A stretch of 59,549 nt of DNA, filler included, from Sphacelaria rigidula (GCA_964200075.2; 9 parts of 9 records of this genome joined end to end with filler, not necessarily neighbours in it), one strand, 5' to 3'; shown: positions 5,927 through 22,942, counted from the first letter of the whole stretch. A program made the numbers and translations. Notes: generated from the sequence alone by a model not told the origin.

Positions 5927-6075
5927 TAGTGCGACTGTACTCTCCACCACCGTACAAGTAGAGGATGTACTTTCGCAAACACCCGTAACGCTCTCAAATT
6001 CGAAAGACGTGGACTCTCGAATTGAAAAAAAATGGCTCAACATCGGTCACGATGAAAAGGTGTGGGTGGATTTTC

Positions 6076-6450
6076 CACACGTCGGACGAGCACGAGTATG
6101 ACTCGTGGCACTCGCACTCGTTGGGCTGCTCGTTCGTTGTAAAAATGAATAGGGCGAGTACTCGAGTCATTGCTCGTTGTGAAAAAAATTAATTGGACGA
6201 GCACTCGAGTCATTGCTCGTTATGAAAAAAAACGCGAGTACTCGAGTCATTACTCGTGGTGGAGAAGTAAATGACTCGAACACACGACTCATCGCTCGCG
6301 ATGAACGACTTGAGTGGAGTAGTCAGCAATCCGACGAGCAAATAATTTCAGTGAGCTCTTCGACGATCTTGAATGTAGAATCTCAAGTTGATATGCATAT
6401 CTGCACATGCACAAGCATCCAGCTCCCCAGCTCGTTTTCATTTTATTCGA
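6076..6450 (+). mobile_element. Left end of a CAC-terminal non-autonomous DNA transposon with CTCGAG-rich subterminal repeats
   Basis: Starts CACACGTCGGACGAG. 6290-6420 matches 33230-33360. Confidence 0.65.
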
Positions 6451-6528
6451 GAAGCCCCTCCCCCCCCCCCCCCCCCCACAACACCCCGAGACCACAAAAA
6501 AACAACCCCCACCCCAGCCAACAGAGCC

Positions 6529-6628
6529 NNNNNNNNNNNNNNNNNNNNNNNNNNNNNNNNNNNNNNNNNNNNTTAATTAATTAANNNNNNNNNNNNNNNN
6601 NNNNNNNNNNNNNNNNNNNNNNNNNNNN
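6529..6628. other. Artificial 100-bp contig-join spacer (N44-TTAATTAATTAA-N44); identical spacers at 13157-13256, 19785-19884, 26413-26512, 33041-33140, 39669-39768, 46296-46395, 52923-53022
   Basis: Eight identical spacers carry stop codons in all six frames. The intervening segments are 6528 bp (x6) then 6527 bp (x3), as expected for length-sorted concatenated contigs. Confidence 0.97.
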
Positions 6629-6639
6629 CTAGAGGGATT

Positions 6640-6934
6640 TACCGGAAGATCGCGATTTGTTGAGTCGGCATCATTTTTACTCTAAAAATAATGCATAATC
6701 CAGATGGACTACCATCACGGTGTGAGGGTTAACCTTAGACCGCGAACGTAGTCCATCTGGACTACACGTTTTTTTTTTAGGTGAAATTGATGCCGATTAA
6801 CAGATGACCTGTCCTCGCTGTCCAAGGGTTAACCCTTAGACAGCGAGAGTAGGTCACCTGTAAAATCGGCATCAATTTCACTTGGAAAAAGTATAGATGA
6901 TTCAGGTGGACTACCCTCGCGGTTTAGAGGTTAA
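6640..6934. mobile_element. Three adjacent piggyBac-like MITEs sharing TTAA junctions
   Basis: GGTTAACC junctions at ~6729, ~6829 and ~6931; orientation alternates. Confidence 0.75.
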
Positions 6935-7189
6935 CCCTCAGCGACCCCGCAGGTGGACTGAAATGGACTACGAGTTTGCCACACCTGGGCTTCAGAACAG
7001 CTCTTTTCTCACTACACAAAAACACTTTCGCTCATAATCACATGGATGCTGGGCATCTATATAGAAAATAGTGCCGGGGAACTCCTGACCCGTTTTGACC
7101 GTGCCGTCAATAGAGTACAGAGTCAGTACGCGTGCGGTATATCTCCGCTGGATACAACGGCAAGAAAGAGTCAGCGTGCCATCGCCTTC

Positions 7190-7500
7190 CACTGGGTCGT
7201 GGGTTCAAATCTCGGAGCGATCTGGAATTTTTCTCACACAATACCCAAAAGTGGAGAGCGACGATGTCATGGGTACACAAAACTCAACTTAACGATCGAC
7301 GAGGGAAAGGGACTGCTGAACCCCTCTCGCGATAAAAAATGAAACGCAGGCACCGCAGAACGAAGGTGGGGAACTATCACAAACAAAAACGAAAAACCTC
7401 CTGTGTTGGCCTTTCTCCTGCGTGACCCCGGATGGTGCGCCCACGTACACCGAAAGATGTAGACCGGCGCTCAGAAAAGATGGGATGACAACACACGCAC
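7190..7500 (+). mobile_element. tRNA-derived SINE family 1, 5'-truncated copy
   Basis: Colinear with 30770-31075; B-box-like GGTTCAAATC. Confidence 0.7.
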
Positions 7501-7528
7501 ACACAGAGTGTCGATGCTGGTGTAGCCC

Positions 7529-8438
7529 TTAACCCCTAGACCGCGCGATTAGTCTTTCTGGATCATGCATACTTTTTTCCCCTTGAAATTGATGCCGATT
7601 CGACAGAAGACAAACCTCGCGGTCTAAGGGTTAACCCTTAGACCGCGAGATGAGTCTTTCTGGATCATGCATACTTTTTTTCACTCGAAATTGATGCCGA
7701 TTCGACAGAAGACTAACCTCGCGGTCTAAGGGTTAATCCTTTGAGCGCGAGGGTAGGTCACCTGCTGAATAGGCATCAATATTCACTTGAGAAAAGTATG
7801 CATGATGCAGATGGACTACCCGCACAGCGGCCCTTTAACCCTCAGACCGCGGGGTTAGTCTTCTGTTGAATCGGCATCAATAAAAAATAAAAAAAAGGGT
7901 GCATGATCCAGAAAGACTCATCTCGCGGTCTCAGGGTTTACCCTTACACGGCGAGAGTAGGTCATCTGTTAAATCGGCATCAATTTCACTTGTCAGAAGT
8001 ATGCATGATGCATATGGACTACCCTCGTCGCGGTCCAAGAGTTAATCGCGAGGGTAGGTCATATGCTGAATCGGCACCAATTTCACTTGAAAAAGTATGC
8101 GTGATCCAGGTGGACTACCCGCATCGCGGTCCAAGGGTTAACCCTCAGAGAGCAAGAGTAGATCATCTATTGAATCGTCATCAATTCCACTTGGAAAAGT
8201 ATGCGTGATCCAGATGGACTACCCTCCTCGCGGCCCCTTTTGGGACCTTCTACCTCATAATCGTGTGTGAACGGCAGGTAACAACGTTTTCGTGACATTG
8301 AGAGTAGGCGGGCGTTGATTGCGGTCCAAGGGTTGACCCTTATACGGCAAAAGTAGGTCACCTGTTGAATCGGCATCAGTTCCACTTGAAAAGTATGCGT
8401 GATCCAGATGGAGTACCCTCCTCGCAGTCTAATGGTTA
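7529..8438. mobile_element. Tandem array of ~8 piggyBac-like MITEs
   Basis: ~98-bp units CCCTTAGACCGCG...CGCGGTCTAAGGG, separated by single TTAA or decayed TTAA (7529, 7631, 7733, 7835, ~7938, 8042, 8138, ~8333). Confidence 0.85.
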
Positions 8439-8439
8439 T

Positions 8440-8645
8440 TCTTTTGGGACCTTCTACCCCACGATCGTGTGTTAGCGGCAGGTAACAATGTTTTCGTGAG
8501 ATTGAGAGTTGGGCGTTGATAGAGAGTGGGTTCTACCATTCGCTGCCAATTCTTCACTTCGCGAGTGCTTTTCTTCGCCTGCATCACTGGCGTGTGCTTA
8601 CAGCTACACGTCGATATCCTACTCAGGGATATCAAGGGCTTGAGA
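8440..8645. repeat. Dispersed repeat; inverted copy at ~39840-40030, partial copy at 8238-8320
   Basis: TCGATATCCTACTCAGGGATATCAAGGG and its flanks are shared. Confidence 0.6.
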
Positions 8646-9957
8646 CCATCGTTTTTCATGGCACACCAATCTCGATTATTTTTAACATCGAGGGAAAAAA
8701 ATAGGGGATGACCGCACCTTCTGGACCAAATCGGGGGAGAAAAGATCGGGGTGTCGCGATATCAGAATGATTTCTCCCGATTAAAAAAAAAAAACGAAGA
8801 TCATTCCGAGATCGTCACTCCTCCCGATTTTGAGGAGGTGACGTACGTGCATTGACGTACAATGGTAGGGTAGGAGGCGTTTGATACTTTCGCAATCGCA
8901 GCAGAAGACAGTCTCGTGACAGCGCAGGGCGTGCCTGCCCGCACCAGCTGCTGAAGTGCACGGCGTTTGACAAATGTATAATAAGTGCTGACGCCGTACC
9001 CTGCGGCGATGGTAATATTTGATGCTGCGCTGCGCTGCCACACGTACCACTATTATAACAAACGATACTGTACTCTCCTTGTCTGTTGTCGCTGTACTTG
9101 AGGAGTGATGTATGGCACTGCACTACTGAACTCTGCTCGCGCAGTCTTTGTTCACTTTTCTCGTAATACCGACTGTGTCGTCATGTACTACCACACGGCA
9201 TTGCCATGCACTGTAATGATGGAGTGTCCTGCACTGTATTTTCCCTACGGTAACAAGGTACGACATTGTACTCGAAGGATTAGTCACCGCCTGCCTGCTC
9301 GTCGGCTTCATGGACGAGTACGCAGTATCACACTCATCATGCAGAAAATGACCGTTTGTGTACAGAACTGTTTCGCAAATCTGTGATACTGTCTGCACCA
9401 TAAAACGGTCCCCCCGATTTCGAGTTTGCGAATTTCAAGTCTAAAAAAATCAAGATTCGTTGCCATAAGAGTGGCAAGCTACTCCAGAAAGCATCTCGGG
9501 CCTCGTGGAGGGGCATTTCGGAACTGCAACTTTTCGGTCGAGTTTTGTCGATGTTTGAAGGTTGAAACGAGTTCATTCTGCGCGGATATCCCAGACGGAG
9601 GAACGGTGGAGATTCACGATCAAGTGTTGCTTCTTCAGCATTAGTGTCTTCAGCCTCCTTTCGATTCTTAATTCGTTTGGGTTTTATAGTTCGAAGGTTG
9701 AAATGAGTTCATTTTACGTTGATATCTCAGTCGGAGACTGGGTGGAGCTGCACGGCTATATTTTTCGTTGTGCAAGATCAGCGCCTTTTGCCCCGGTTCG
9801 ATTCTTTTTCGGTCGGATTTTATCGTAGTCGATGATGTTTGAAAGTAAAAAAAGACAAAAAAGGAGAATATCTTCATGTCGAAAGAGTCATCTCTCAATC
9901 ATATCCTCGCCTCTAAGCACTCCTGTTTGTGGGCGACGGCTGATGCCCATCTCATCA

Positions 9958-10064
9958 ACCCCCTAGACCGCAATGTAGGTAGCCCATCTTGATCACGCAT
10001 AATTTTTTCAAGTGATCATTGATGCCGACTCAGCAGGTGACCTACCCTCGCGGCCAAGGGTTAA
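9958..10064. mobile_element. piggyBac-like MITE copy
   Basis: CCCCCTAGACCGC ... CTCGCGGCCAAGGG|TTAA with the family core. Confidence 0.7.
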
Positions 10065-10766
10065 CCTTCGCCTTGGCAATCGCTCCATTGAGCGGTGGCG
10101 CGAAGCGCCCAAAACCTTGTACAATATGTAGGACTTACATGTCGGCTCATTTTCGAGTCCTGCAGACAGGTGCACTTTTGCTGTATTCTTCACTTGATTT
10201 TAAAGCACATATCTACCGGGGCCAGTTTGTTCCATGAACCTCTAAGAAACCAGCATTTCTTCTTTGCTGGATTTAAGAGTACAATTTCCCGCTGATTATA
10301 CGTATCAGCCTCTTCGGTTGTATTTCGCTGGGCATTAGGGTGCGTTCCCGTTCTGCTTAGGTTTACAGTGCATGCACTTTCCGCGCTGTGTTTCTTCATG
10401 GCATTTTGATGTTTGATGCATTTCCTCGTTGGACGGTGGACCCTTTGACCGCCGGAGATGCCACTTTTCACCTTACACAGGCTCCACATTCATTCGTCGA
10501 ACCGGTATCGTTTTCACTTGAAAATTGAATCGGCATCATGCTCAGTTGGGTCGGCTGTGCGGAACGACGCTCTGTTCAATCTCGGGGCACACCAGGATCA
10601 TGTTGCGATCTTGCCCGCATGTCGCATCGTCTCGACTGTACTCTCCTTTTACTGTATCTGAACTGCTATTGTAGCTGCTGCTACTGCTCTACCGTACATG
10701 CGATTATTTTACAATGAGACGCTAAAAACAACGGCTTCTATTTCAGATTTGAATCGGCAGCTAGTT

Positions 10767-10915
10767 GCCGCGGCGGCTCAGTTCGTAACCTGTAAACCTT
10801 CTGACGGTTGGATCGTTGGTTCGAATCTCAGTGCAGTCACACGATCTGGGATTTTATCTCATACCATGCCCAACAATGGAGAGCGACTATGCCGTTGGGG
10901 TAGATGAAAGTCGAC
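10767..10915 (+). mobile_element. tRNA-derived SINE family 1, 5' part
   Basis: GGCTCAGTTCGTAACC...GGTTCGAATCTC matches 30729-30860. Confidence 0.65.
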
Positions 10916-11959
10916 AACCTATGTTTTTTTGGGTTGCCGGGGCAAGGAGATCCCCGCGTTCGATCAAGCTGTGCTTTCGGTTCGCGGGGGAAATGAGTTC
11001 CCCGCATTCACCTCTGATTGTGATGGACTGTTCGTCATGTGTCAAGCCTTCGCGTGAGCCTCTTATCATCGGGACACCCATGTTGTTGCTCTTCTGGCTA
11101 GAAACGAGGCAAATATTTTCATTTTTGGAATCGGCATCATGATCAATTGAGAACGATATGAAACAGCAGCGTGCCGTCCTTCTCCACTGAACGCTCGAGG
11201 CGGAGGTAAAAGCAAAACGTTCTTTTTCGAGTTTGAATCGGCATCAGCTCAACGGGTGCTGACCCTTTTTCTTTGTGGTGGACGCGCATCTCGCCCAAAT
11301 CATCGTCTCTCATGGAATTCTGAAAAATTTTGCCCAAGGCCTCGAACAACGTGCTCAGCTCATGAGCTATTAATAGCTGCTACTACGGCTTTGACAAACT
11401 GTGCCATGTACCATTACTGAATGGACATGAATATCAGCACCAGTGCCCATGTATCTTGGCTGTCGATCTACTGAGCGTGGCGGCGATAGCCGCCAAAACT
11501 CTTGTATCTATATGCATTTACCCTCGCGTTTTATTTTCAACACCACATTCTCAAGTGCAACTCTCAGAATTGAGGTGATGATTTGCCTGCGACCTGCAGA
11601 TCCGCTTCTAACCTGGCCCATCTCGTGTCCACGTGTAGGTGGGAAGGAGACCGAGCCACCTACATACCGTGGCGTTCGCCAGGGCTTCATGCTCGTCATG
11701 CTATCGATCAGCACTTCGTCAAACACACGAACCACAGTGATACAGTGACGTAAGTTCTGCAAATAGGAGGGACTCAAGCATGGTGTGGCCATTCCGGGCT
11801 GGCGACCCACAGCACTATGCCGGTATTCTACATTGTTCTGGGATAGTGCGTCAAGCTCAACGGACCTGCCCACGACGTGCGGTGTAGCTCCAGGAATCGT
11901 CATGTTTCAAGGTGCTGTTTCTACGTGTCCACAATGGGAGGATGACCGCACGCACCCAC

Positions 11960-12186
11960 CTTGCTGTTGGGTAACCATTCTCTGCAATGCTCAGGAGCCA
12001 CGCCGAATCCCATCGGGTAAAGGCCGCCAGGGGGCCACCTACTCCTGGTCCGGCCGGAACCGGGTAATCTGCCGGGCGGTAAAGATGCACTCCGCCGGCG
12101 CCGTGGGTCGGTAGCAGGTCGCTGGCCAAGGCCATCAAAGCCAAAAGAGCGATTCTTGAGGCTATCGCAACGAACACGACATTCAT
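11960..12186 (-). CDS. PIGV: GPI mannosyltransferase II (PIG-V/Gpi18), first coding exon; partial gene
   Basis: ATG at 12186. Hydrophobic N-terminal segment with 'SR', then FTRWDSAWLLSIAENGY, matching the PIG-V RWD-x3-(F/L)L-x-IAE-x-GY motif. Donor AAG|GTGGGT after 11960. Later exons were not confidently found. Confidence 0.85.
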
Positions 12187-12724
12187 CGCTCCGCCACTTA
12201 CTGTGACCGCCTGCTTATGATGACGATTGAGGAATAATCTGGTGTGATTTAGTCACCACAGGGGCGCAGAGTCAATCGAAATTGCGGTGCTACGCTTCTC
12301 CTATCCCCACGCAAGGCTATCTCCAATCCAGCCGAAATACACAAACGACCTCCTGGAGCTGGAACGCAGATCCGAGTTTTCTAGCCAGGCCTACGGTCAA
12401 GGATCGAAGCTTTCCGAAGCACTGACCACACTCATACAACAGAGATTCAACGGGAAAATAGATCGCACATGTACTGGCCACCCAACCAGTGTTACCCTCT
12501 AGCCGCAGGCCCGCATCGGGCGTCGCAGGTCCAGGATCCAGGGGATCGAAAAGGTTATGTTGTGTCTTTATCGCATGACCAAAGTTATAAAAAAAGATAT
12601 AAAATCATGACCGATCGCATTTTGACAGTCGATTTTTTCAAACATAAAGCAGCTGGTAAGTGCCAAACGAGTTCGTAGACAGAAGCCCCTGATATCTACT
12701 TGCCTGTACATTGTTAGAGAAGAC

Positions 12725-12829
12725 ATGCCTGGGCTAGACAGCTTGCTCGGAGTCTGGGACACTAAAACTGTTAGAGGTCAAGCCAGAGAGACCGAAGCTC
12801 GAGAGCTACTGCACAAAATCGCTGATCAG
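12725..12829 (+). CDS. WSS1: WSS1-like WLM-domain metalloprotease (DNA-protein crosslink repair), first coding exon; partial gene
   Basis: MPGLDSLLGVWDTKTVRGQARETEARELLHKIADQ resembles the WSS1A N-terminus (VWEIKAL...REDEARKILEKVA-x-QV). Phase-0 donor CAG|GTGCAA. Only 35 codons are visible. Confidence 0.65.
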
Positions 12830-13878
12830 GTGCAACTCACACATGCTACTTTTTGCCATCTACAGCTTTTATTCTGTACTGTTTATACTCAGTTGAGAAG
12901 CTGCGCCGCATGCCTCATCTGTCCTACAGGCTGGGCCGCCCAAGAAGCCACCAGGAATAGTGAAACGCATTTACTTCGCTCAATTTTGGATCGTTTTCGA
13001 TGAAATTTTGATACGATGTACAGGATATGTGTGCAAATACCAAACCTTTCCCTCTATGTTTTTGTTTTCTGTGAGTTACTGGCTATTTTGTTCCGAAAAA
13101 AACTGTTCTGAAATAATCCGTCGCCAAAATCTCACGGAAGGGAAAAAAAAAAAGGGNNNNNNNNNNNNNNNNNNNNNNNNNNNNNNNNNNNNNNNNNNNN
13201 TTAATTAATTAANNNNNNNNNNNNNNNNNNNNNNNNNNNNNNNNNNNNNNNNNNNNACCAATTTTTATCCCCGCCCCTCCGGGGCGTTTTTTGGGGGGGT
13301 TGGGGGGGGGGGGGGGGGCTATCTCGGCAGCAGTCTATTTGTGTCTTTGGGTTTATCGCGGCTTAGTGCCACGCGCAAACGCAATCAAGTAACTCGGGAC
13401 CTAGCTTGGGTGTGAGGGGAGCGCATGCAAGAAACCACAGTCCAATCCTCAGCTTCGTTGCCGAGATCTAAGCGTTGCGCGATCGGCACAGCAACATACT
13501 GCAACAAGACGGGCACAACAATACGAGCAGCGCCTTTTATCCTCCTGATGCTGTAACCTTGTGGACAGGAGAACAGAGACGTCAGTCACATTTTGTTGTA
13601 GAATGTACTACAGTAATAGTACATGAGGTGATGCGTGTATTTTTTATTGAGATGATTCACCCAATTACGATCCAATTCTTAGACATAAAGCGGTCGGGGC
13701 GGACTTTCCCGGCAGATAGTACCCAAAATCGGCCCCCATTCCAACCCATAGCGATGACACGGTACCGCCGGATAATATTAAAACTGACACTCATCGCGTT
13801 GATGTGTACGAATCATGACCTGCACTAAAGATGGATACTTTCGAACAGCGCTATGCCAAACATCAGCCGGGAAAAAGC

Positions 13879-14090
13879 AGGGCCCTACACATTACACGTT
13901 CACATTTCACGCGTCACGCCATCCGTTGAGCCAGGCTAGTACTACGGTTGGGGGACGGGGACCACGTGGGTAGCCCTGTTCATAAGTCAAGTCAATCAGG
14001 GCTCCCCAAGTGGTCCCCCACCGTAGTAGGGGCCTGATTCAACTCTTGACGTGACGCGTGAAATGTGAACGTGTAACGTGTAGGGCTCTG
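13879..14090. mobile_element. Palindromic hAT-like MITE
   Basis: CAGGGCCCTACAC...TTACACGTTCACATTTCACGCGTCACG / CGTGACGCGTGAAATGTGAACGTGTAA...GTGTAGGGCTCTG, with inner arms also complementary; flanks GAAAAAAG / CGAAAAAG. Confidence 0.75.
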
Positions 14091-14123
14091 CGAAAAAGGG
14101 CGTGCACGGTCCCTATCAACAAG

Positions 14124-17100
14124 TTACGTCTCTCGCGAGCGGAATAAGGACGACGACACATAACCAGAGGAAGCAGACACGCCCAATTCTAACTTCACGC
14201 CCGCTCTATCCTCATCAACCATCAGATCATCCTCCGCTGCCACATCAAAAACCGGCTCCACCTGCGCTGTCCAGCGTAGCCGCTTCGTATTCCTCCCAGT
14301 GGCGATGCCACTTCCGTAACTCACTTTCATAGCCGCGCCTCTGGAGTCACCGTTGCCCATGCTGCCGCAACTGCTGGGCTGCGCGGTGAACAGTTGGCCA
14401 CTACTTGTCACCCCCTTGGAAACACACGCAAGCGCGATAGTCGTCTCTAGTTCCAATTTCATGCGCGCCTCTGCCCGATCTGAAGGAACCGAATCTATTG
14501 GAGCTGCATCAGAGGGCGGTCCCAGAGCAGTAGGCGGTGCTCTCAAGTTTTCAAGCCGCCGCCTAGAACGGATGGCTCGCGAGCTGAGAGAATCATTTGT
14601 GTCGCGACAACAATCGTTCGCGTTGGGGCCAGCATTCGATATATAGCTGCGTCTTTCACCGCGTCTATCGATACCGACAGCAGTCTTCCCCACAGCCAAG
14701 TCGTCTCTCAGGTGTTTGTTTTCATGAACATGTCCTGCTGCATCACACGACATGACCAGCTCATGTGCAGCATGGGCCCAGAGTTTCTCGTATTCCCGAA
14801 CCCGGTTGACACAGCACTGCGAGGTGCATTGATGACCCATACCCGCCTGGACGTGTATGGTGCATAACTCCATCATCTCGCCACCGGCTGCACCGCACGA
14901 TGCTTGTTTTGAGCAGTCCTTCTTGCCACACCGCTTGTTTTCCACGTGAACCATGCCCGCCCGGGTGTGTGGGGCCCAGAACTCCGCCTTCCTGCCACCG
15001 GCTGTACCGATTGATGGTTGTTGTGAGCGTCCATCCTTACCGCGTCGCTTGGCTCCCATGTCAACCATGCCCGCCAGGGTGTGGGTGGCGCAAACCTCCG
15101 CCCTCCCGCCACCGGCTGCACCGAACAATGGGTGTTTGGAGCATTCCTCCTCGCCGCACCGCTTCCATTCCACCTCAACGATGCCCGCCGGAGCGTGTGT
15201 GGCGCATAACTCTGCCTGCCCGCCAACGGCCGACCGAAACAATGGTCGTTTCGAGCAGCCCTCCTTGACGCACTGCTCGCGTCCTATAGCGCCAATGTCT
15301 GCCGGGGCCTGTGTGGTGCAGAACGCCGCCTTCTCATCACCGGGTGTGCCGAACGATGGGTGTTCGGAGCAGCCCTCCTCGCCGCACCGCTTGCTTGTAA
15401 AGTCAACCATGCCAGCCCGGGCGTGTGTGGCGCAGAACTCTGCCTTCCCGCCATCGGCTGCACCGAACGATGGTTGTTTCGAGCAGCCCTCATTGCCACA
15501 CCGATTGGTTCTCACGTCAACTATGCCCGCCAGGGCGTGCGTGGCGCAGAACTCCGCCTGCCCGCCACCGGCTGAACCAAACAATGGTCGTTTGGAGCAG
15601 CCCTCCTCGCCGCACTGCTTGTTCTTCACGTCAACCATGTCTGCCGGGGCGTGCGTGGCGCAGAACTCCGCCTTCCCGCCACCGGCTGCACCGAACGACG
15701 ATTGTTTGAAGCAGCCCTCCTTATTGCACCGCGTTGATTTATTGTCAACCATGCTCGCCAGGGCGTGTGTGGCGCAGAACTCCCTTTCCCCACTTTTGGC
15801 TGCACCGAACGATGGGTGTTTGGAGCAGCCCTCCTCGCCGCACCGCCTGTGTTTCACGTTAACCATGTTTGCCGGGGCGTGTGTGGCGCAGAACTCTGCC
15901 TGCCCGCCAACTGCTGCACCGAACGATGGGTACTTGGAGCAGCCCTCCTTGCCGCACCGCTTGTATTTCACGTTAACCATGTTTGCCGGGGCGTGAGTGG
16001 CGCAGAACTCTGCCTGCCTGCCAACTGCTGCACCGAACGATGGGTACTTGGAGCATCCCTCCTTGCCGCACCGCTTGGCTTTCACGTTAACCATGTTCGC
16101 CGGGGCGTGAGTGGCGCAGAACTCTGCCTGCCTGCCAACTCCTGCACCGAACGACGGGTACTTGGAGCAGCCCTCCTTGCCGCACCGCTTGTATTTCACG
16201 TTAACCATGCCCGCCGGGGCGTGCGCGGCGCAGAACTCCACCTTCCGGCCACCGGCTGCACCGAACGATGGTTTTTTCGAGCAGCCCTCATTGCCACACC
16301 GCTTGACTCTCATGTCAACCATGCCAGCCCGGGCGTGTGTGGCGCAGAACTCCCTTTTCCCACTATGGGCTGCACCGAACGATGGTTGTTTTGAGCAGCC
16401 CTCATTGCCACACCGCTTGACTCTCATGTCAACCATGCCAGCCCGGGCGTGTGTGGCGCAGAACTCCCTTTTCCCACTATGGGCTGCACCGAACGATGGG
16501 TGTTTGGAGCAGCCCTCCTCGCGGCAACGCTTGTGTTTCACGTCAACCATGCCCGCCGGGGCGTGCGTGGCGCAGAACTCCGCCTGCCCGCCACCGGCTG
16601 AACCAAACAACGGTCGTTTGGAGCAGCCCTCCTCGCCGCACTGCTTGTTCTTCACGTCAACCGTGTCTGCCGGGGCGTGTGTGACGCAGAACTCCGCCTT
16701 CCCACCACCGGCTGCACCGAACGACGGTTGTGTGAAGCAGCCCTCCTCATTGCACCGCGTTGATTTATTGTCAACCATGCTCGCCAGGGCGTGTGTGGCG
16801 CAGAACTCCCTTTTCCCACTTTTGGCTGCACCGAACGATGGGTGTTTGGAGCAGCCCTCCTTGCCGCATCGCTTGTGTTTCACGTTAACCATGTTCGCCG
16901 GGGCGTGTGTGGCGCAGAACTCTGCCTGCCCGCCAACGGCTGCACCGAACGATGGGTACTTGGAGCAGCCCTCCTTGCCGCACCGCTTGACTCTCATGTC
17001 AACCATGCCCGCCCGGGCGTGCGCGGCGCAGAACTCTGCTTTCCCGCCACCGGCTGCACCGAACGATGGGTACTTGGAGCATCCCTCCTTGCCGCACCGC

Positions 17101-17894
17101 TTGTGTTTCACGTTAACCATGTTCGCCGGGGCGTGTGTGGCGCAGAACTCCGCCTTCCTGCAACCGGCTGCACCGAACGATGGTGGTTTCGAGCAGCCCT
17201 CACTGCCACACCGATTGGTTCTCATGTCAACTATGCCCGCCAGGGCGTGGGTGGCGCAGAACTCTGCCTGCCCGCCACCGGCTGAACCAAACAATAGTCG
17301 TTCGAAGCAGCCCTTTTTGCCGCACTGCTTGTTGTTCACGTCAACCATGTCTGCCGGGGCGTGTGTGACACAGAACTCCGCCTTGCCGCCACCGGCTGCA
17401 CCGAATGACGATTGTTTGAAGCAGCCCTCCTTATTGCACCGCATGCCGGCAGCACTGGCCATACCTGCCGGCGTGTGTGTGGCGCAGAATTCCGCCCTCT
17501 CATCACCGGGTGTGCCAAACGACAGGTATTTGGAGCATCCCTCCTTGCCGCACTGCTCGTGTTCTATGTCAACCATGCCAGCCCGGGCGTGTGTGGCGCA
17601 GTACTCTGCCTTTCCGCTACCGCCTGCACAAAACGTTGGGTGTTTGGAGCAGCCGTCCTCGCCGCCCCGCCTGTTAGTCACATTAACCATGCCAGCCCGC
17701 GCGTGTGTGGCGCAAAACTCCACCTTCCGGCCACCGGCTGCACCGAACGATGGGTACTTGGAGCAGCCCTCCTTGTTGCACTGCATGCTGACAACATTGG
17801 CTATGCCTCCCGGCGGGTGTTTGGCGCAAAACTCCACCTTCCGGCCACCGGCTGAATCGAACGATGGTGATTTGAAGCCGCCTGCACCACACAA
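14124..17894 (-). CDS. Intronless EsV-1-7 cysteine-rich repeat protein (27 repeats plus a ~230-aa C-terminal tail); first in-frame ATG at 17786
   Basis: 1256-codon ORF. Unit CGKEGCSKxPSFGAAGGGKAEFCATHAPAGMVNVKxKR, C-x4-C-x16-C-x2-H, typical of the EsV-1-7 motif of phaeoviruses and brown algae. Confidence 0.93.
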   Translation of the reverse strand: MCGAGGFKSPSFDSAGGRKVEFCAKHPPGGIANVVSMQCNKEGCSKYPSFGAAGGRKVEFCATHARAGMVNVTNRRGGEDGCSKHPTFCAGGSGKAEYCATHARAGMVDIEHEQCGKEGCSKYLSFGTPGDERAEFCATHTPAGMASAAGMRCNKEGCFKQSSFGAAGGGKAEFCVTHAPADMVDVNNKQCGKKGCFERLLFGSAGGGQAEFCATHALAGIVDMRTNRCGSEGCSKPPSFGAAGCRKAEFCATHAPANMVNVKHKRCGKEGCSKYPSFGAAGGGKAEFCAAHARAGMVDMRVKRCGKEGCSKYPSFGAAVGGQAEFCATHAPANMVNVKHKRCGKEGCSKHPSFGAAKSGKREFCATHALASMVDNKSTRCNEEGCFTQPSFGAAGGGKAEFCVTHAPADTVDVKNKQCGEEGCSKRPLFGSAGGGQAEFCATHAPAGMVDVKHKRCREEGCSKHPSFGAAHSGKREFCATHARAGMVDMRVKRCGNEGCSKQPSFGAAHSGKREFCATHARAGMVDMRVKRCGNEGCSKKPSFGAAGGRKVEFCAAHAPAGMVNVKYKRCGKEGCSKYPSFGAGVGRQAEFCATHAPANMVNVKAKRCGKEGCSKYPSFGAAVGRQAEFCATHAPANMVNVKYKRCGKEGCSKYPSFGAAVGGQAEFCATHAPANMVNVKHRRCGEEGCSKHPSFGAAKSGEREFCATHALASMVDNKSTRCNKEGCFKQSSFGAAGGGKAEFCATHAPADMVDVKNKQCGEEGCSKRPLFGSAGGGQAEFCATHALAGIVDVRTNRCGNEGCSKQPSFGAADGGKAEFCATHARAGMVDFTSKRCGEEGCSEHPSFGTPGDEKAAFCTTQAPADIGAIGREQCVKEGCSKRPLFRSAVGGQAELCATHAPAGIVEVEWKRCGEEECSKHPLFGAAGGGRAEVCATHTLAGMVDMGAKRRGKDGRSQQPSIGTAGGRKAEFWAPHTRAGMVHVENKRCGKKDCSKQASCGAAGGEMMELCTIHVQAGMGHQCTSQCCVNRVREYEKLWAHAAHELVMSCDAAGHVHENKHLRDDLAVGKTAVGIDRRGERRSYISNAGPNANDCCRDTNDSLSSRAIRSRRRLENLRAPPTALGPPSDAAPIDSVPSDRAEARMKLELETTIALACVSKGVTSSGQLFTAQPSSCGSMGNGDSRGAAMKVSYGSGIATGRNTKRLRWTAQVEPVFDVAAEDDLMVDEDRAGVKLELGVSASSGYVSSSLFRSRET
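14817..17891 (-). repeat. Coding tandem array of 27 units, 114 bp each (first unit 111 bp)
   Basis: Exact 38-aa period from repeat 2 to repeat 27, with no indels. Confidence 0.95.
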
Positions 17895-20800
17895 TCAGCA
17901 TGGGTAATCATTTGTCGTGCCGAAGTGTATGGGAGGTACATCGTCATAATAGCATTTGAGTCAACGAATGGTACGTGGCACGAAGGCTAGAGCGGACGAC
18001 AACCCAACCGTGGAGTCAGCAGGCGAGAAGGATAGCTACTGTAGCGGGGTAGCTACAGGCAGCACAGTGCCTTTTCCATGAGGGCAACAGTCCCGATGCT
18101 GCAACTACAGCGCGAACGACTTGACTAGGGGGTGCGTGTTTAGAGCTGAACACGCACATAGGTCTGTGCTGTAGGTGGCCCGATGGAAGACCGGGTCGAC
18201 CCATGCCGAGTGAACGGCCCTATATCGAACACGGCGTACAATCGAGTTAGAGCCGCTTCGGATAAGGCCGAACCGGCCTCATGCAACCGGCCTGATGTCG
18301 GGTCAACAAGCTGAAAGCGTTTTGCCAGTGGACGGATAATGGAATCACTGCGTTGACTTACTTCATTGATATTGTGGTGTTGTCTCTGCCGTGATACGCA
18401 CCCCAGTCTGTGGAGTGCCGGAGGTCCTTGCGTGCTGACGACCACGCGATGGCGTAGGACTGGCCCATTCCGCTTCAAGGCCAATTTTGGCCAACACAGG
18501 AAAAAAGGTCTCACATCCAGAGAGGTGTGACACCGGAATCTAGGTGGTAAATATCTGAAATGCCCCTATTGAAGCGGCCACATATCGGGTCGCCTGCTAT
18601 CGTGTCAAGGTCACTGGTACGAATTTTTCACGATTAGGATTCGCTCAACACACGACGCACCAAGGGTCACGTTTTGGGCGGCTCGCATCACAGGTAGTAC
18701 AAACTGGACAGTCAGTACATGTGAGTGACATCCGTCTGCCATAAACAACCGACCACGAAAGTCCGTAAGAGGTGGATGATCGCGTGGAGGTGGGCAGCAT
18801 ACGTCGATTCAATCGCGCGTCTAGCTTACTGCCATGCACTGTTGGGACACATCAATTCATCCTGTGTGGGTACTGGAGGGATGCTCCACATGAGTTGCGG
18901 TTACGGCGAGCACATTGTGCATACTACCGAGAGGCCATACGGCACTCACTAGGCAGCATGATCACAAGGCGCTGTACTCAGATCAGCGGTCCCTGTCACC
19001 ACCTGTATCTACACGCTACAGAGCTCCGAATGAGGGCAAGTATGTGGGAAACAATTATCCTTCACGGGGTGTAGTGATCCTCCGCTGCTGCCCCTTGGCA
19101 TGGAGGGTGTATACGCTGAACTTGTAACGCTTCAGAAGGGTGGAATGAAATGAGCTGGTGAAGTGTTGGGCTCGGAAGGTTTCTGATACATTGTCAGGAC
19201 GCGAAAACGAAGACTCTTGGGTGTACTCAAGTAGTTTCTAGCTGGGTGAGGGAATTTTTGTATATTTTGCGTAGTCGGCGATTTTGAGTAATCTTCTTGA
19301 GTGTCACCGGTCATAACAATGAACATTTCATGCCAACATTTGGAAATCGGGACACTGGGCATCCGCTCCAAATTTCGAAATAAAAACCATCTTATTGACG
19401 CTCAATATTGGACGATCAACGTGCTGATCAACAGGGCTTCTTGTTTACTGTTCTGATTGAGAAAACGTTCTGTTTTTTCGGCTCTAGCGCAATAAAGGGG
19501 TGAGAAGAGGAGGGGTTTATAAATAACTCACGCGAGCGATTGGGATTCATCAACGCCGCCCCATATGCTATACAGAGCTCGGTTGGAAAATTTTCGTTGT
19601 TGCGCATTATCCTGAATTCGCCAGCATAGTAGTCTTCCTTTGCATCCGAAAGTCCTAGCGTCGATAGATATTGGGAGAACAAGCGGGTGTTGGTCACGAC
19701 ACAATCTTCAAGTTGGTGATCATGCATGCCATAGTCATAAGACCATTGACCTCGCATCCCTACAAAGCCGGGACGGAGCACGCCNNNNNNNNNNNNNNNN
19801 NNNNNNNNNNNNNNNNNNNNNNNNNNNNTTAATTAATTAANNNNNNNNNNNNNNNNNNNNNNNNNNNNNNNNNNNNNNNNNNNNTAAATTAGCAGAGGGT
19901 ATTTGGTGGTGCGGTCAAACACCCACAATCCCCCGGGGCAAAACACTAACTTCCTCCCCCCCCCCCCCCCCCATTTGTAGGGATGCGAGGTCAACAGCCG
20001 TATGACCACGACAGGCGAGATCATGCTTACCCCCCTCCCTGCTTGATATACTTCCCCTTGCCCATCGGTCTGCTTGTACAATTGTGCGGGTCCCTAACCT
20101 TGTTCGATTTCTTGTTGTCTTTTTGGTGCATTCTTTGGCGTCTTACGAGGTAGAACACATATTTCCCCCAACAGTTGTCGCTTGCACCCCTTTTGCATCT
20201 TGCAGAACGGCTGCAAAAAAACAGTCGGTCCGATAATGGCCGTATTTCGCTTCTTCTCTCGAGGCAAAAATAAGTCGGGAATAAGAAATTGTTGTCCTCG
20301 CCGTCACTGAGCCTTGGTACAAACAAGTTGGAGAAAAAAACGTTCGAAAAAAGCCAAAAATGAGAGCTTTTGTCTTTGCACTAGTATCGTCACTGAAACC
20401 GTTTGAGCATGCCGCAATGGTACTTATCATGTGTATGCAACGGCTGCTTGTATGCAGCTACGTTATGTCCTCTACCGAGCAATGCCAAAGTTTCACTCGC
20501 TGTATTGGAAGTGCTTAGTCCCTTGCGTACGCCATGTCTATGGCCTGAAACTGGGGCTGGCGATGTTTCCCTTGTCTTGATCGATGTCTGAGGTCGCTCT
20601 ATCAGCTACCATGCTTGGAAACGCGGTGGATATCTCGATGCGCCCTACAGGTTACCGTGCTTTGACAGTCCACACATACATCCCCTGTAATGGTTTATGT
20701 GAGAAGTTTCCTTTGAAATTGAGTGGTGTGCTGAACACGGTACAGTAGTAGCTGATCAATGGTTCACGCCTGGCCCTCCCCTGTACTCTTTTTTATTAAT

Positions 20801-21132: not shown

Positions 21133-21515
21133 GTACGCGAGCATCGTACCTCCGCTTGATGGAATAGTTGGGGTATTGTTGAGACCCGTAAATACCACTG
21201 GTGACTGACATGGTTGATTTCATGGGCGCGTATGGGCTGGACCAACGAAGGTGTCGACTGAAAGATCGAGTAGGTCGCCATGCCTAAGGACAGATCGTGT
21301 CACGCTGATGCTATACCGCGGGAACCCATGAAAAGTGTCGAATCATGTGCCTTCGCCTTATTTCCCCTTGCCTTTGTACTGGAGACGTCTCGGTGCGTTG
21401 CCAACACCATTCCCGCCTACACGTCGATCGTCTACCCCCGTTTATTTACTTCCTTCTGCCCGCTGGTCCATATTCCCCACATCCCGTTTACTTCGAAATA
21501 ACAACGAATGAGCAG

Positions 21516-21921
21516 GGCAACCCGCCGGACATACGAGCCGACGAGCGGGCGACGCGACTTCTGGCTGCCCACAACCTTTCTATCGTGGAAATGATCAAAG
21601 TTCTCTACCCGACGCTGTACTCCATACACGACCTGCCGCCGGATGTAGGAGATGAACCTCCCCCATCCCCGTCTCGAGCAAACGCGGAGCAGCCCAATGG
21701 GTATGTGGACCCGCAGACGGGAGAAGAGCGGGCATATAGGGCAGGGGAGGTACCACGACCCGGGGTGGACGTGCCGGTTGGGTTGCCTCCAACTTCGGAG
21801 AAACTGTCGAGTCAGGGCGTGTTTTTGCTTGACAGCGGGGAGGATCTGTTGATGTACGTGGGCAGAGGGACTAGTGCGGAGGTGCTGCAGGAGTTGTTCG
21901 GAGTGGCAACCCTTCCAGACG
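21516..21921 (+). CDS. SEC24: Sec24 internal exon (helical domain end and gelsolin-like domain)
   Basis: DIRADERA...LYPTLYSIHDL...SEKLSSQGVFLLDSGEDLLMYVG...LQELFGV; donor G|GTGAG, phase 1. Confidence 0.92.
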
Positions 21922-22942
21922 GTGAGAAATCTTCTTGAGCGACAATTACATCGTACATACGGTTACTACATGATGGTGACGTGAGTTTAGAGCGTTCGGT
22001 TTGTGTGTTGTCAGTACAGGTGTGTGTTGTACTTTCCCTTATTCTCTCTCTACCAGACGAGGGTGGTACACATCGCTCCTATTCGTTCCGCGTGGATCAA
22101 AACTGCCGTGCTCCTGTATGAACTTCGATGCTCTCGAGATGAGCTTTGCGTGTTGTCGAGGATGAAGTCTCGCATGAAGCCAGACGACAACTTGGTCTTT
22201 CTCCCCTCCCCGGCTTCACGTGCTATTCTCGTGGGCGAGGAAAGCAGCTGTTGTTTCACCGGTACCGCAAAAAGGAGGAATACGTTGCACAAAATATTCC
22301 TCATTATGATGGCACAACGCAGGTCGCTTGTCGTAACTTTCTCCACGATACCGCTGATCGTTTACGATCGTATAAAGTTGAAATGTGGAATAGGGTTCTC
22401 CGCCGCTGGCGATCACGATGTGGGCATAAATGCGGTAGCTCTCTCCTCCGCACGACCTCTTCTATGTACACCTGCATGCATGGGATATGGCAAGACACAG
22501 TGTTGCGGTTGGACATGGTATATAGACAAGGCCACTCGCCGAGTTTAGATGGCGTCACCCGTGCAAATACAGACAAGCAGTTCGTTCTCCACCCTGTGCT
22601 CTTGGTTCTTGTCTTGCCTTGTACCGTCAATAGTGCATACAGTAAATGCGACAAGATAAAAAGGATCCATAACAACATAGATCGACGCGTTCGGCAGTGC
22701 AAACCTTATCGTGACCCGGGCGGTGTTGTCTTTGCCGTTCACCATCCGGTACTGTCGCTGCGTCGTCCAGAGTATCGTACCATGTTGCTTTTCATTGCGG
22801 TGGCTATTGTAGCTTGCATCTGTCGTCCACTCGGGTCAAAGCAAAATAGCTGAGTTTGTGGGCAAACTCTCAGCTGAGGTCGTCAGCTTACTTTGTATCG
22901 CATTGACGATTACGCCGAATCGAACCTGCCCTACCTTTCCAG

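What the first reader, a model, noticed from the sequence alone, without database searches (positions are those of the whole stretch)
14817..17891. EsV-1-7 array with a near four-state variable residue: candidate TALE/PRDM9-like programmable binder
Seen: 27 tandem units with a strongly conserved scaffold. The third residue after the second Cys reads, for repeats 2-27, Y H Y Q R P Y Y H Q R H Q K Y Y Y H Q R Q H R H Q Q (Y7, Q7, H6, R4, K1, P1). A second variable patch is the basic linker (VKHKR, MRVKR, NKSTR, VKNKQ, VKYKR). Known: EsV-1-7 repeats are putative zinc-binding motifs shared between phaeoviruses and brown algae, and they occur in the Ectocarpus developmental regulator IMMEDIATE UPRIGHT. 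I know of no established ligand or recognition code. Inference: strict period, localised variation among residues able to contact nucleic acid, and a single exon fit a modular one-repeat-per-subsite recognition code, for example against transposons or viruses. Caveat: the codons TAC/CAC/CAA/CGA/AAA/CCA are linked by single substitutions, so mutational proximity alone could produce this alphabet.
Basis: partly seen in the sequence, partly recalled or inferred. Interest (0 to 1): 0.82.

Follow-up and report, generated by a model that had tools for sequence, protein, structure and literature searches.

The report
Long EsV-1-7 zinc-repeat gene
This is an unusually long member of the known EsV-1-7 cysteine-rich repeat family of brown algae and giant viruses; its variable residue is real and marks a likely ligand-reading face, but a one-residue TALE-like code is not shown.

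Summary
A minus-strand open frame (14124-17894) carries 27 head-to-tail 114-nt units without indels.

Column 9 is not unique in this array. Linker columns 36 and 35 are more variable, and column 3 changes as often. About half of the column-9 states were inherited through unit and block duplications. Of 13 near-identical unit pairs, 12 share the residue. The alphabet uses only one-step codon neighbours, with CAA and CGA, which are otherwise rare in this gene. A TALE- or PRDM9-like reading is therefore not supported as stated.

In 57 other EsV-1-7 proteins, column 9 has the highest within-protein entropy. It is nearly uncorrelated between neighbouring units. Like columns 11, 35 and 36, it almost never holds an acidic residue.

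Six units fold with confidence (pLDDT 93.6). The model matches no solved chain at significance. Of 159 homologues, 88 carry a nuclease-like C-terminal domain; this gene does not.

Best reading: a domesticated modular zinc-repeat binder, probably of nucleic acid, with several reading residues per unit.

The parts
14124..17786 (-). Coding sequence from the first in-frame ATG (17786) to the stop (14124-14126): 1220 aa, made of 26 EsV-1-7 units plus a 230-aa tail, with no interruption
   Evidence: Pfam PF19114
17787..17894 (-). Decayed unit 1. It follows a TGA directly, has Leu and Gly in place of Cys at columns 1 and 6, and lies upstream of the first ATG. Probably a 5' leader relic.
14817..17780 (-). 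Units 2-27, each 114 nt (38 aa) with pattern C-x4-C-x16-C-x2-H and no indels. Column 9 reads Y H Y Q R P Y Y H Q R H Q K Y Y Y H Q R Q H R H Q Q.
16527..16982 (-). Four-unit block, units 9-12 (Y H Q R): first copy of a duplicated higher-order block
   Evidence: 96, 98, 94 and 93% unit-by-unit DNA identity to units 18-21; 91% aa identity over the block
15501..15956 (-). Four-unit block, units 18-21 (Y H Q R): second copy of that block
17211..17438 (-). Units 5-6 (Q R): third copy of the Q-R pair. It falls in the same tree clades as units 11/20 and 12/21.
16299..16982 (-). Units 9-14, the stretch that was folded: pLDDT 93.6, pTM 0.66
14931..15044 (-). Unit 26, with three of four metal ligands lost (C1 to R, C6 to R, C23 to W)
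17553..17666 (-). Unit 3, with the first Cys replaced by Gly
15273..15386 (-). Unit 23, with the ligand His replaced by Gln
14127..14816 (-). Non-repeat C-terminal tail of 230 aa. It has no Pfam or PHROG family and is shared with homologues P0017, P0019, P0021, P0076 and, more distantly, P0044 and P0068.
14178..14198 (-). VKLELGV, the motif VKLEL[GD]V that is invariant in all 7 aligned tails
14271..14291 (-). NTKRLRW, a conserved basic motif. That it is NLS-like is my inference.
13323..14123 (-). Possible 3' UTR, covered by a collinear 1318-nt contig (13323-14640) of run X6. The kind of that run is only guessed to be RNA.
   Evidence: table 8

Best explanation
[quoted passage not shown] Neighbouring sequence points to host rather than viral DNA.

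Anatomy. The gene encodes 26 translated 38-aa modules, each C-x4-C-x16-C-x2-H and presumably holding one zinc. A 230-aa tail follows, carrying short conserved motifs.

Origin of the array. It grew by duplication of single units and of multi-unit blocks; the four-unit block Y-H-Q-R occurs twice. Much of the column-9 string is therefore inherited. The rest arose by single-nucleotide steps around CAA and CAC.

Structure. The modules are predicted to pack into one continuous rigid rod or solenoid, not beads on a string.

Variable face. Family-wide, the positions that differ from unit to unit within a protein are column 9 first, then 36, 35, 11 and 7. Columns 9, 11, 35 and 36 almost never hold acidic residues. 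They are rich in Q/N, K/R/H and S/T, and they sit in a basic array (pI about 9).

Inference. These positions form a polyanion-facing reading surface. The protein most likely binds nucleic acid, probably DNA, in modular fashion with several reading residues per unit. It would act as a nuclear regulator descended from the targeting arrays of giant-virus nucleases and transposases. It has no nuclease domain itself.

Shown: anatomy, family membership, duplication history, the variation pattern and a confident fold prediction. Inferred: zinc binding, the binding face, a nucleic-acid ligand and a regulatory role.
For: Family and anatomy:
- PF19114 matches 27 times at 984.9 bits. The period is strict, with 0% indels.
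- Metal ligands are kept in 23 of 27 units.
- Ligand columns show omega of about 0.17-0.35 although synonymous changes are present, for example column 1 with S = 4 and N = 2.
- Recent duplicates show 43 amino-acid against 35 synonymous codon differences. By my arithmetic, with 87.8 non-synonymous to 26.2 synonymous sites, omega is about 0.37.

Duplication history:
- The unit tree built without codon 9 has clades that are uniformly R (4 units), Q (3), Y (4) and H (2).
- The nearest neighbour shares residue 9 in 14 of 26 units, against 5.0 expected (P = 0.0004).
- Column 9 needs 11 changes on the tree, against a shuffle mean of 15.5.
- Blocks 9-12 and 18-21 are 93-98% identical.

Codons: at column 9 the codons are TAC, CAC, CAA, CGA, AAA and CCA only, while the rest of the gene prefers CAG and CGG.

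Structure:
- AlphaFold2 on units 9-14 with a 110-row alignment gave pLDDT 93.6 and pTM 0.66.
- The best viral model match is EsV-1-7 itself: E = 6.8e-24, TMq 0.69.

Family-wide variation:
- Within-protein entropy is highest at column 9, both in 39 nuclease-tailed and in 41 other proteins.
- MI-APC between column 9 of adjacent units is 0.11, against 0.40-0.65 for columns 27, 14, 13, 21, 28, 2, 17, 15, 3, 22, 4, 29, 31 and 7 and 0.25-0.34 for seven further columns. The top partner of column 9 in the next unit is column 35 of the preceding unit (0.143), a weak signal.
- Acidic residues make up 2, 0, 3 and 3% at columns 9, 11, 35 and 36. At other variable columns (2, 3, 4, 7, 15, 17, 25, 28, 29) they make up 12-44%.
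- The array has pI 8.95, with 137 K+R against 92 D+E.

DNA context in the family:
- 88 of 159 homologues carry a C-terminal RPDF...EVDExQH...RYNPD domain.
- Two of 10 scanned tails give sub-threshold Hjc resolvase hits over that motif (E = 0.16 and 0.21).
- Four of the 26 BFVD matches with E <= 0.001 (three) or of those just above that bar (one, E 1.7e-3) are named 'Endonuclease' by their depositors.
- The tail also occurs in Atlas clusters with C2H2 or WRKY19-type fingers.
- A Mariner-Tc1 transposase with an N-terminal EsV-1-7 domain is reported in PMC12477816 (passage read).

Host context: a gelsolin-repeat exon lies at 21309-21938. No other Pfam family was found in the 23 open frames of 150 aa or more that I scanned, out of 33 listed.
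Against: - No binding, zinc or localisation data exist. [quoted passage not shown]
- The crude tree-wide omega for the array is about 0.9, so much of the between-unit divergence could be near-neutral.
- The nuclease identity of the homologues' tail is unconfirmed. It gave no Pfam, NCBIfam or PDB sequence hit at threshold.
- This gene and its tail-sharing relatives lack that tail.
- The 157 proteins (706 units) behind the family statistics were chosen as the best hits to this very array, and their units were detected with an HMM built from it. That may bias the column statistics.
- Zinc-module arrays such as LIM, B-box and RING also serve protein binding.
Confidence: 0.5

Rival explanations
1. 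One reading: a TALE- or PRDM9-like programmable binder. Column 9 alone, as a four-letter alphabet, specifies one subsite per repeat. The array diversifies quickly, for example against transposons or viruses.
For: - The period is strict at 38 aa, in the size range of one-repeat-per-nucleotide solenoids (sizes recalled).
- Column 9 is the top within-protein variable site family-wide and is nearly independent between neighbouring units.
- Four residues dominate column 9 in nuclease-tailed homologues: Q100, R93, I40, H30 of 368.
- In this array column 9 shows 11 non-synonymous and 0 synonymous changes.
Against: - The scaffold is not constant. Mean unit DNA identity is 77%, and columns 36, 35, 34, 37, 33, 19, 28, 16 and 30 also exceed 1.5 bits.
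- 12 of 13 near-identical unit pairs keep the same column-9 residue, and only 1 of 43 recent amino-acid differences lies there.
- Omega of about 2 at column 9 has P = 0.025 before correction for 38 columns. Columns 3, 35 and 36 are equal or higher.
- The alphabet in this array is the one-step mutational neighbourhood of CAA and CAC, with atypical codons.
- Columns 11, 35, 36 and 7 vary almost as much family-wide.
Confidence: 0.12
2. A zinc-stabilised repeat rod that serves as a protein-protein scaffold or adaptor. The variable columns would be a protein-binding or merely solvent-exposed surface, with no nucleic-acid ligand.
For: - The weak Foldseek rows, all with E of about 1 or worse, are zinc modules of mixed use: nsp13 zinc-binding domain, LIM, B-box, RING, PHD/PZP.
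- The tail carries short linear motifs typical of regulated interaction.
- No Pfam DNA-binding family was detected.
Against: - Acidic residues are nearly absent at exactly the unit-specific columns, yet common at other variable columns.
- The array is basic overall.
- The family recurs fused to a nuclease-like domain and to a transposase, and the same tail pairs with C2H2 fingers in other clusters.
Confidence: 0.2
3. A recently amplified, weakly constrained or decaying family copy. The open frame persists only because a stop-free unit was multiplied, and column-9 diversity is neutral drift at a tolerant site.
For: - The crude tree-wide omega is about 0.9.
- Units 1, 3, 23 and 26 have lost ligands.
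- The opposite strand also shows 598- and 348-aa open frames made by the repeat, so an open frame is weak evidence here.
- No run on record as RNA holds the gene.
Against: - Ligand columns are strongly conserved although synonymous changes occur at them.
- Recent duplicates show omega of about 0.37.
- The 230-aa non-repeat tail is also open and is conserved with six other proteins, including the invariant VKLEL[GD]V.
- Run X6 has contig depth in every bin from 13300 to 18007 and none in 18008-19291, where the three other runs continue. This is only a weak hint.
Confidence: 0.13

Closest known systems
EsV-1-7 protein of Ectocarpus siliculosus virus 1 (UniProt Q8QNQ2), founder of Pfam PF19114
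   Same: It has the same 38-aa C-x4-C-x16-C-x2-H repeat. It is the best predicted-structure match: E = 6.8e-24, TMq 0.69, 47% identity over 227 columns.
   Different: It is viral and 378 aa long. The window gene has 26-27 units and a different C-terminal tail, and lies beside a gelsolin-like host exon.
Brown-algal EsV-1-7 domain family, including Ectocarpus IMMEDIATE UPRIGHT (IMM)
   Same: It is a large host family: 2018 proteins in 31 genomes, 95-101 in Ectocarpus. [quoted passage not shown]
   Different: IMM has a unique N-terminal domain plus five repeats. This protein starts two residues before a repeat, has about five times as many units, and has its own tail. The most units detected in any of the 159 homologues was 11 with my unit HMM and 14 by Pfam among the 30 proteins scanned.
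Giant-virus (Nucleocytoviricota) EsV-1-7 array proteins with a C-terminal nuclease-like domain, some named 'Endonuclease' in UniProt
   Same: The repeat and the predicted array fold are the same. The same unit-specific variable columns appear: 9 and 11, then 36, 35 and 7.
   Different: The window protein lacks the RPDF...EVDExQH...RYNPD domain. A tail HMM gives no hit to it or to any of the six frames of the window.
TAL effector repeats
   Same: Strict period of similar size, tandem array in one exon, one position standing out in variability.
   Different: TALE repeats are helical and nearly identical apart from the two-residue RVD (recalled). Here the modules are zinc-type with little regular secondary structure. 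Units are only about 77% identical in DNA, and several columns vary.
C2H2 zinc-finger arrays (PRDM9, KRAB-ZNF)
   Same: Tandem metal-stabilised modules with basic linkers. Variation is concentrated at a few polar or basic positions. In giant viruses the same tail domain also occurs in a cluster in which 16% of members carry C2H2 fingers.
   Different: The ligand spacing differs and no zf-C2H2 Pfam hit was found. Near-identical units do not differ preferentially at column 9.
GATA / ArfGAP-type treble-clef zinc fingers
   Same: The ligand spacing C-x(2-4)-C-x16/17-C-x2-C/H is similar (spacings recalled). One Atlas cluster of EsV-1-7 proteins carries PF01412 ArfGap in 20% of its members. GATA3 and ArfGAP appear among the very weak Foldseek rows.
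   Different: No significant structural or sequence match: Foldseek E > 0.9, VIA-align no Z of 2 or more. The fourth ligand is His, and the modules pack in tandem.

Membership tests
EsV-1-7 cysteine-rich repeat family (Pfam PF19114 / IPR043822) | Match to the Pfam model above its gathering score | tested here: met
   984.9 bits against a cut-off of 25; 27 stretches
EsV-1-7 cysteine-rich repeat family (Pfam PF19114 / IPR043822) | Repeated C-x4-C-x16-C-x2-H motif at a period of about 38 aa | tested here: met
   23 of 27 units keep all four ligands. Period 114 nt with 0% indels.
EsV-1-7 cysteine-rich repeat family (Pfam PF19114 / IPR043822) | Zinc coordination by the Cys/His set | not testable with these tools
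   The AlphaFold2 model carries no metal. Needs ICP-MS or a solved structure.
IMMEDIATE UPRIGHT orthologue | IMM-specific N-terminal domain followed by five repeats (passage of 10.1101/2024.02.19.579948) | tested here: not met
   The protein begins two residues before a repeat and has 26 units. No IMM sequence was at hand for a direct comparison.
TALE-like repeat code | Near-identical repeats with variation confined to one or two code residues | tested here: not met
   Mean unit DNA identity 0.77. Ten columns exceed 1.5 bits, and column 9 ranks third.
TALE-like repeat code | One repeat reads one base of DNA | not testable with these tools
   No nucleic-acid modelling or binding assay was available.
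PRDM9 / KRAB-ZNF-type rapidly evolving finger array | C2H2 fold and signature | tested here: not met
   No zf-C2H2 family among the Pfam hits at E <= 1.
PRDM9 / KRAB-ZNF-type rapidly evolving finger array | Near-identical units that differ mainly at contact residues, under positive selection there | tested here: not met
   12 of 13 pairs at 92% identity or more share column 9, and 1 of 43 amino-acid differences lies there. Omega is about 2.0 with P = 0.025 uncorrected.
Giant-virus EsV-1-7 / nuclease-like fusion proteins | C-terminal RPDF...EVDExQH...RYNPD domain | tested here: not met
   An HMM built from 86 tails hits 88 of 160 sequences at E <= 1e-5. It does not hit the window protein, its tail-sharing relatives or any frame of the window.
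GATA / ArfGAP-type treble-clef zinc finger | Structural superposition on a solved treble-clef finger | tested here: inconclusive
   Only rows with E >= 0.98 in Foldseek and no Z >= 2 in VIA-align. The whole six-unit model was searched, not a single unit.

The most novel reading that the evidence does not exclude
EsV-1-7 arrays are a further natural class of modular nucleic-acid readers, beside C2H2 fingers, TALEs and PPR/PUF repeats. They would be zinc-stabilised 38-aa units stacked into a rigid solenoid, each reading one subsite through a small acid-free residue set: column 9 (mostly Q/R/H/I/K/Y), column 11 (S/T/N), and columns 35 and 36 of the preceding linker (K/R/V and S/N/H). The system would have arisen as the targeting arm of giant-virus nucleases and of a Mariner transposase. 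Brown algae would then have domesticated and massively expanded it as regulators. This 26-unit gene would be one of the longest readers.
Probability: 0.2. Interest if true: 0.9.

Novelty: new member of a known kind. Interest (0 to 1): 0.5.

Why it matters
EsV-1-7 domain genes form one of the largest gene families of brown algae and include the developmental regulator IMM. The papers I could read still give them no biochemical function.

This locus is itself just a long member of that family.
- A defined set of unit-specific, acid-free positions.
- A confident predicted repeat fold with no significant solved counterpart.
- Recurrent fusion to DNA-acting enzymes in giant viruses and a transposon.

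If the arrays read DNA modularly, this would explain how a virus-derived domain became a regulatory toolkit. It could also offer a new programmable scaffold.

Tried and rejected
No whole genome is held for the window, so paralogues and orthologues could not be compared at the DNA level.
- Macaisne et al. 2017 (Development 144:409) is not held. What I say about it comes from citing papers.
- The first fold, with only 23 overlapping windows of this protein as alignment, failed (pLDDT 29.3) and was discarded.
- A 150-row alignment was too large for the fold tool. A 110-row one was used instead.
- Sequence searches of solved structures found nothing useful, whether with the 4-unit profile, with P0048, or with the 110-row profile that includes the homologues' tail.
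- Foldseek against the PDB gave no match at E <= 0.001. VIA-align against 48,161 chains gave no Z of 2 or more. Per the tools' own notes, this does not prove a new fold.
- The homologues' tail got no family at threshold. PHROGs gave phrog_9084 'homing endonuclease' at E = 0.0027 for 1 of 6 homologues scanned; the window's own tail, the seventh query, got no family. NCBIfam gave only chance-level rows. Pfam at E <= 10 gave sub-threshold Hjc hits in 2 of 10.
- A word-index search with the window's tail among longer proteins returned only P0014, a fragment of this same gene.
- Sequencing runs: no RNA holder is listed. Only contigs were laid.
- Of the 17 variant places listed inside the array, 2 fall in column 9. 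Alleles cannot be told from the many paralogous copies, so I draw nothing from them.
- Joints within the array in the contigs look like assembly cross-overs between similar units.
- Very high summed depth in some array bins suggests many paralogous units in the organism, but it is not a copy number.
- Complex prediction was not used, because it offers no nucleic-acid partner.
- An upstream exon: a TGCAG|G lies at about 17882, but no contig depth in the putative RNA run lies upstream of about 18007. I keep the single-exon model.

Full report
**1. What is there**

Tandem Repeats Finder finds one array at 14837-17882: period 114, 26.7 copies, 78% matches, no indels, score 3014. On the minus strand a frame is open from 17894 to the stop at 14124, 1256 codons. 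Cut into 38-residue rows, it gives 27 units and a 230-residue tail.

Pfam PF19114 (EsV-1-7 cysteine-rich motif) matches in 27 stretches at 984.9 bits against a cut-off of 25. No other family reaches its threshold.

The quoted linker variants are all present.

Three details need adding:
- Unit 1 follows a TGA directly, has lost two Cys, and lies upstream of the first in-frame ATG at 17786. The protein probably has 26 units.
- 23 of 27 units keep all four ligands. Units 1, 3, 23 and 26 do not.
- The long open frames on the plus strand (598 and 348 aa) are by-products of multiplying a stop-free unit.

**2. Surroundings**

The array is richer in G+C (0.59-0.61) than its flanks (about 0.48). The window holds no other EsV-1-7 motif in any frame.

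I scanned 23 of the 33 listed open frames of 150 aa or more. The 10 left out were the gene's own frame, five frames overlapping the array, and four others. Only one scanned frame has a Pfam family: a gelsolin repeat at 21309-21938. I take this as host rather than proviral context. No whole genome is held.

Contigs of four public runs cover the locus. In run X6, whose kind is only guessed to be RNA, bins with depth span 13300 to 18007; the longest contig runs 13323-14640. There is no depth in 18008-19291, where the three other runs go on. This is a weak hint of a single-exon transcript with a 3' UTR of about 0.8 kb. No run on record as RNA holds the gene.

**3. How special is column 9 in this array?**

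Its entropy, 2.28 bits, is third of 38, after linker columns 36 (3.10) and 35 (2.45). It is the most variable column outside the linker.

On a maximum-likelihood tree of the 26 units built without codon 9, the well-supported clades are uniform at column 9:
- u6, u12, u21, u24 are all R.
- u5, u11, u20 are all Q.
- u9, u16, u17, u18 are all Y.
- u10, u19 are both H.

Further measures of inheritance:
- The nearest neighbour shares residue 9 in 14 of 26 units, against 5.0 by shuffling (P = 0.0004).
- Column 9 needs 11 changes on the tree. The minimum is 5 and the shuffle mean is 15.5. Only 0.25% of shuffles need as few.
- Column 3 needs 12 changes, column 35 needs 11 and column 36 needs 14.

The cause is visible in the DNA. 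Units 9-12 (Y H Q R) and 18-21 (Y H Q R) are 96, 98, 94 and 93% identical unit by unit. Units 5-6 are a third Q-R copy. Roughly half of the 'alphabet string' is therefore inherited by unit and block duplication.

**4. Selection**

Fitch counts on codons give 175 non-synonymous and 58 synonymous changes in all. With 87.8 and 26.2 sites, this is a crude omega of about 0.9.

The changes are unevenly spread:
- Ligand columns 1, 6, 23 and 26 have omega of 0.17-0.35.
- Columns 3, 9, 35 and 36 have omega of 2.0-2.7.
- For column 9 (11 N, 0 S), P = 0.025 before correction for 38 columns. Only column 36 (P = 0.0011) would survive correction.

Among the 13 unit pairs with 92% DNA identity or more, 12 share the column-9 residue. 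The exception is units 13 and 14, H and Q. Of their 43 amino-acid differences, one is at column 9, against six at column 36 and five at column 3. The 35 synonymous codon differences imply omega of about 0.37 in the recent past (my arithmetic).

So there is purifying selection on the modules and no sign of PRDM9-like churning at column 9.

- Column 9 uses only TAC, CAC, CAA, CGA, AAA and CCA.
- Gln there is CAA 7 of 7, while the rest of the gene has CAG 19 to CAA 3.
- Arg there is CGA 4 of 4, while CGA is 4 of 75 Arg codons elsewhere.

In this array the alphabet is the one-step neighbourhood of CAA and CAC.

**5. The family**

An exhaustive profile-free search found 5734 proteins at E <= 0.001 and 745 at E <= 1e-30. 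The closest, apart from a fragment of this same gene (P0014), are only 45-57% identical. The word-index search agrees: the best hit is 44% identical, and one hit is named from the brown alga Sphacelaria.

With an HMM of the window's units I extracted 706 units from 156 other proteins. Family-wide, column 9 is variable but not the most variable: 3.46 bits, seventh. Its residues are Q178, R151, H64, I59, K40, T27, Y25, S24.

Within proteins the picture changes:
- In 57 proteins with 6 or more units, column 9 has the highest mean within-protein entropy, 1.85 bits. Next come column 36 (1.66), 35 (1.63), 11 (1.56) and 7 (1.53).
- Column 9 is top-1 in 13 of 57 and top-3 in 24 of 57. Its median rank is 4.
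- The same order holds separately in 39 nuclease-tailed and 41 other proteins with 5 or more units.
- Mutual information between the same column in adjacent units is 0.40-0.65 for columns 27, 14, 13, 21, 28, 2, 17, 15, 3, 22, 4, 29, 31 and 7, and 0.25-0.34 for seven more (25, 24, 20, 18, 19, 30 among the top pairs). Those columns are therefore protein-specific. For column 9 it is only 0.11, so it is unit-specific.
- The strongest partner of column 9 in the next unit is column 35 of the preceding linker (0.143), a weak signal.
- Acidic residues make up 2, 0, 3 and 3% at columns 9, 11, 35 and 36. They make up 12-44% at nine other variable columns.

One caution applies. The proteins were selected by likeness to this array, and the units were found with its HMM.

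**6. Structure**

With only this protein's own windows as alignment, AlphaFold2 failed (pLDDT 29.3). With units 9-14 as target and 3 own plus 106 homologue rows, it gave pLDDT 93.6 and pTM 0.66. Short beta bridges lie at unit columns 12-13, 22 and 32-33, and in some units a helical turn follows the third ligand.

The pTM, together with the TMq of 0.69 to the independent BFVD model of EsV-1-7, suggests fixed unit-to-unit packing, that is, a rod or solenoid.

Foldseek found no PDB match at E <= 0.001. Its weak rows are assorted zinc modules. VIA-align found no chain with Z of 2 or more among 48,161. Three PDB sequence searches were empty or at chance level.

I had no access to coordinates, so the exposure of column 9 is inferred only from its polar make-up. 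A second clue is the alternation of variable columns 7, 9 and 11 with conserved columns 6, 8, 10 and 12.

**7. Hints at the ligand**

- 88 of 159 homologues carry a C-terminal domain with the consensus ...RPDF...ILEVDExQH...CE..RM...FIRYNPD.
- This domain has no Pfam family at threshold. Two of 10 scanned tails give sub-threshold Hjc resolvase hits across the motif, and one of six homologues scanned gives a weak PHROG 'homing endonuclease' hit.
- The motif order recalls Vsr/DUF559-type PD-(D/E)xK nucleases. That comparison is recalled, not tested.
- The ESM Atlas places the tail in Nucleocytoviricota clusters. There it stands alone, or with EsV-1-7 arrays, or in a cluster named 'Endonuclease (Fragment)' with WRKY19-type fingers, or in a cluster with C2H2 fingers in 16% of members.
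- Four BFVD matches (three of the 26 at E <= 0.001, one at 1.7e-3) are named 'Endonuclease' by their depositors.
- PMC12477816 (passage read) reports a Mariner-Tc1 transposase of Ectocarpus with an acquired N-terminal EsV-1-7 domain.
- The array here is basic: pI 8.95, with 137 K+R against 92 D+E.

Together these make nucleic acid, probably DNA, the most likely ligand for the family. It is an inference from architecture.

The window protein itself lacks the nuclease-like domain. Its own tail is shared with six other proteins. It holds an invariant VKLEL[GD]V, a basic NTKRLR motif and an RMK[LV]E motif. My reading of these as NLS-like and psi-K-x-E (SUMO-site-like) is recalled, not tested.

**8. 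Comparison and verdict**

This is a member of the known EsV-1-7 family. Passages of two preprints and two reviews describe a very large brown-algal family of unknown function, with no other Pfam domain.

It is not an IMM orthologue by anatomy. It does not fit the TALE criterion of a constant scaffold. It is not a C2H2 or PRDM9-type array.

It is unusually long. The most units in any of the 159 homologues was 11 by my HMM and 14 by Pfam among the 30 scanned. Short-read assemblies, however, would collapse long arrays.

I found no paper that proposes unit-specific reading positions or notes the nuclease-like fusion:
- 'EsV-1-7' gave 11 papers.
- The Pfam and InterPro identifiers gave 2 papers.
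- 'EsV-1-7' together with 'endonuclease' gave 1 paper, on the transposase.
- The Pfam WRKY19-finger names gave none.

The library lacks most subscription journals, and the key 2017 paper was not readable.

Overall this is an ordinary but long family member. A broader, multi-residue version of it is strengthened at the family level and is now testable.

Noticed in passing
homologues P0004, P0006, P0020, P0027, P0031, P0048 and others (88 of 159 proteins fetched): A conserved C-terminal domain of about 170 aa (RPDF...ILEVDExQH...CE..RM...FIRYNPD) follows the EsV-1-7 array. It has no Pfam family at threshold and looks like a PD-(D/E)xK/Vsr-type nuclease (recalled). Atlas clusters with it are Nucleocytoviricota. 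It also occurs alone and in clusters with C2H2 or WRKY19-type fingers.
   Followed up: partly
homologue P0015 (residues 212-224); also weak in P0038 and P0043: Pfam PF24906 Zf_WRKY19 scores 35.3 bits (cut-off 27) on an EsV-1-7 protein. The two Pfam models may therefore describe related motifs.
   Followed up: no
window 14127-14816 (-): The tail subfamily has an invariant VKLEL[GD]V near the C-terminus, a basic NTKRLR motif and an RMK[LV]E motif in 7 aligned proteins. They may be NLS and psi-K-x-E sites (recalled patterns, untested).
   Followed up: partly
window 13300-13513 and 13942-14155: Summed contig depth of 7,500-29,600 in the three runs X1, X3 and X4, against about 10-40 in the neighbouring single-copy bins. 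These look like high-copy repeats, probably transposon pieces, on either side of the 3' UTR.
   Followed up: no
window 16938-17365 (about units 6-9): Summed contig depth is about 150 to 650 times that of the flanks (4,742-19,495 against about 10-40 per run). At place 17162, 76-95 contigs per run carry another base. This suggests many paralogous EsV-1-7 units at 90% identity or more elsewhere in the organism. It is not a copy number.
   Followed up: no
window 40913-42355 (-): A 480-codon open frame, very rich in Gln and Pro, with no Pfam family, in a G+C-rich stretch (40-46 kb, 0.53-0.57).
   Followed up: no
window 21309-21938 (+): An open frame with a gelsolin repeat (PF00626, E = 1.8e-5, 24.9 bits against a cut-off of 21), probably an exon of a host actin-binding protein gene.
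   Followed up: no
window 6529-53022: Sixteen runs of 44 N occur in pairs at a regular spacing of about 6628 bases. They look like masking, not assembly gaps.
   Followed up: no
window 17899-17901 (-): An out-of-frame ATG lies 7 nt upstream of the start of the long open frame. It could open a short upstream reading frame in the leader (read by eye).
   Followed up: no
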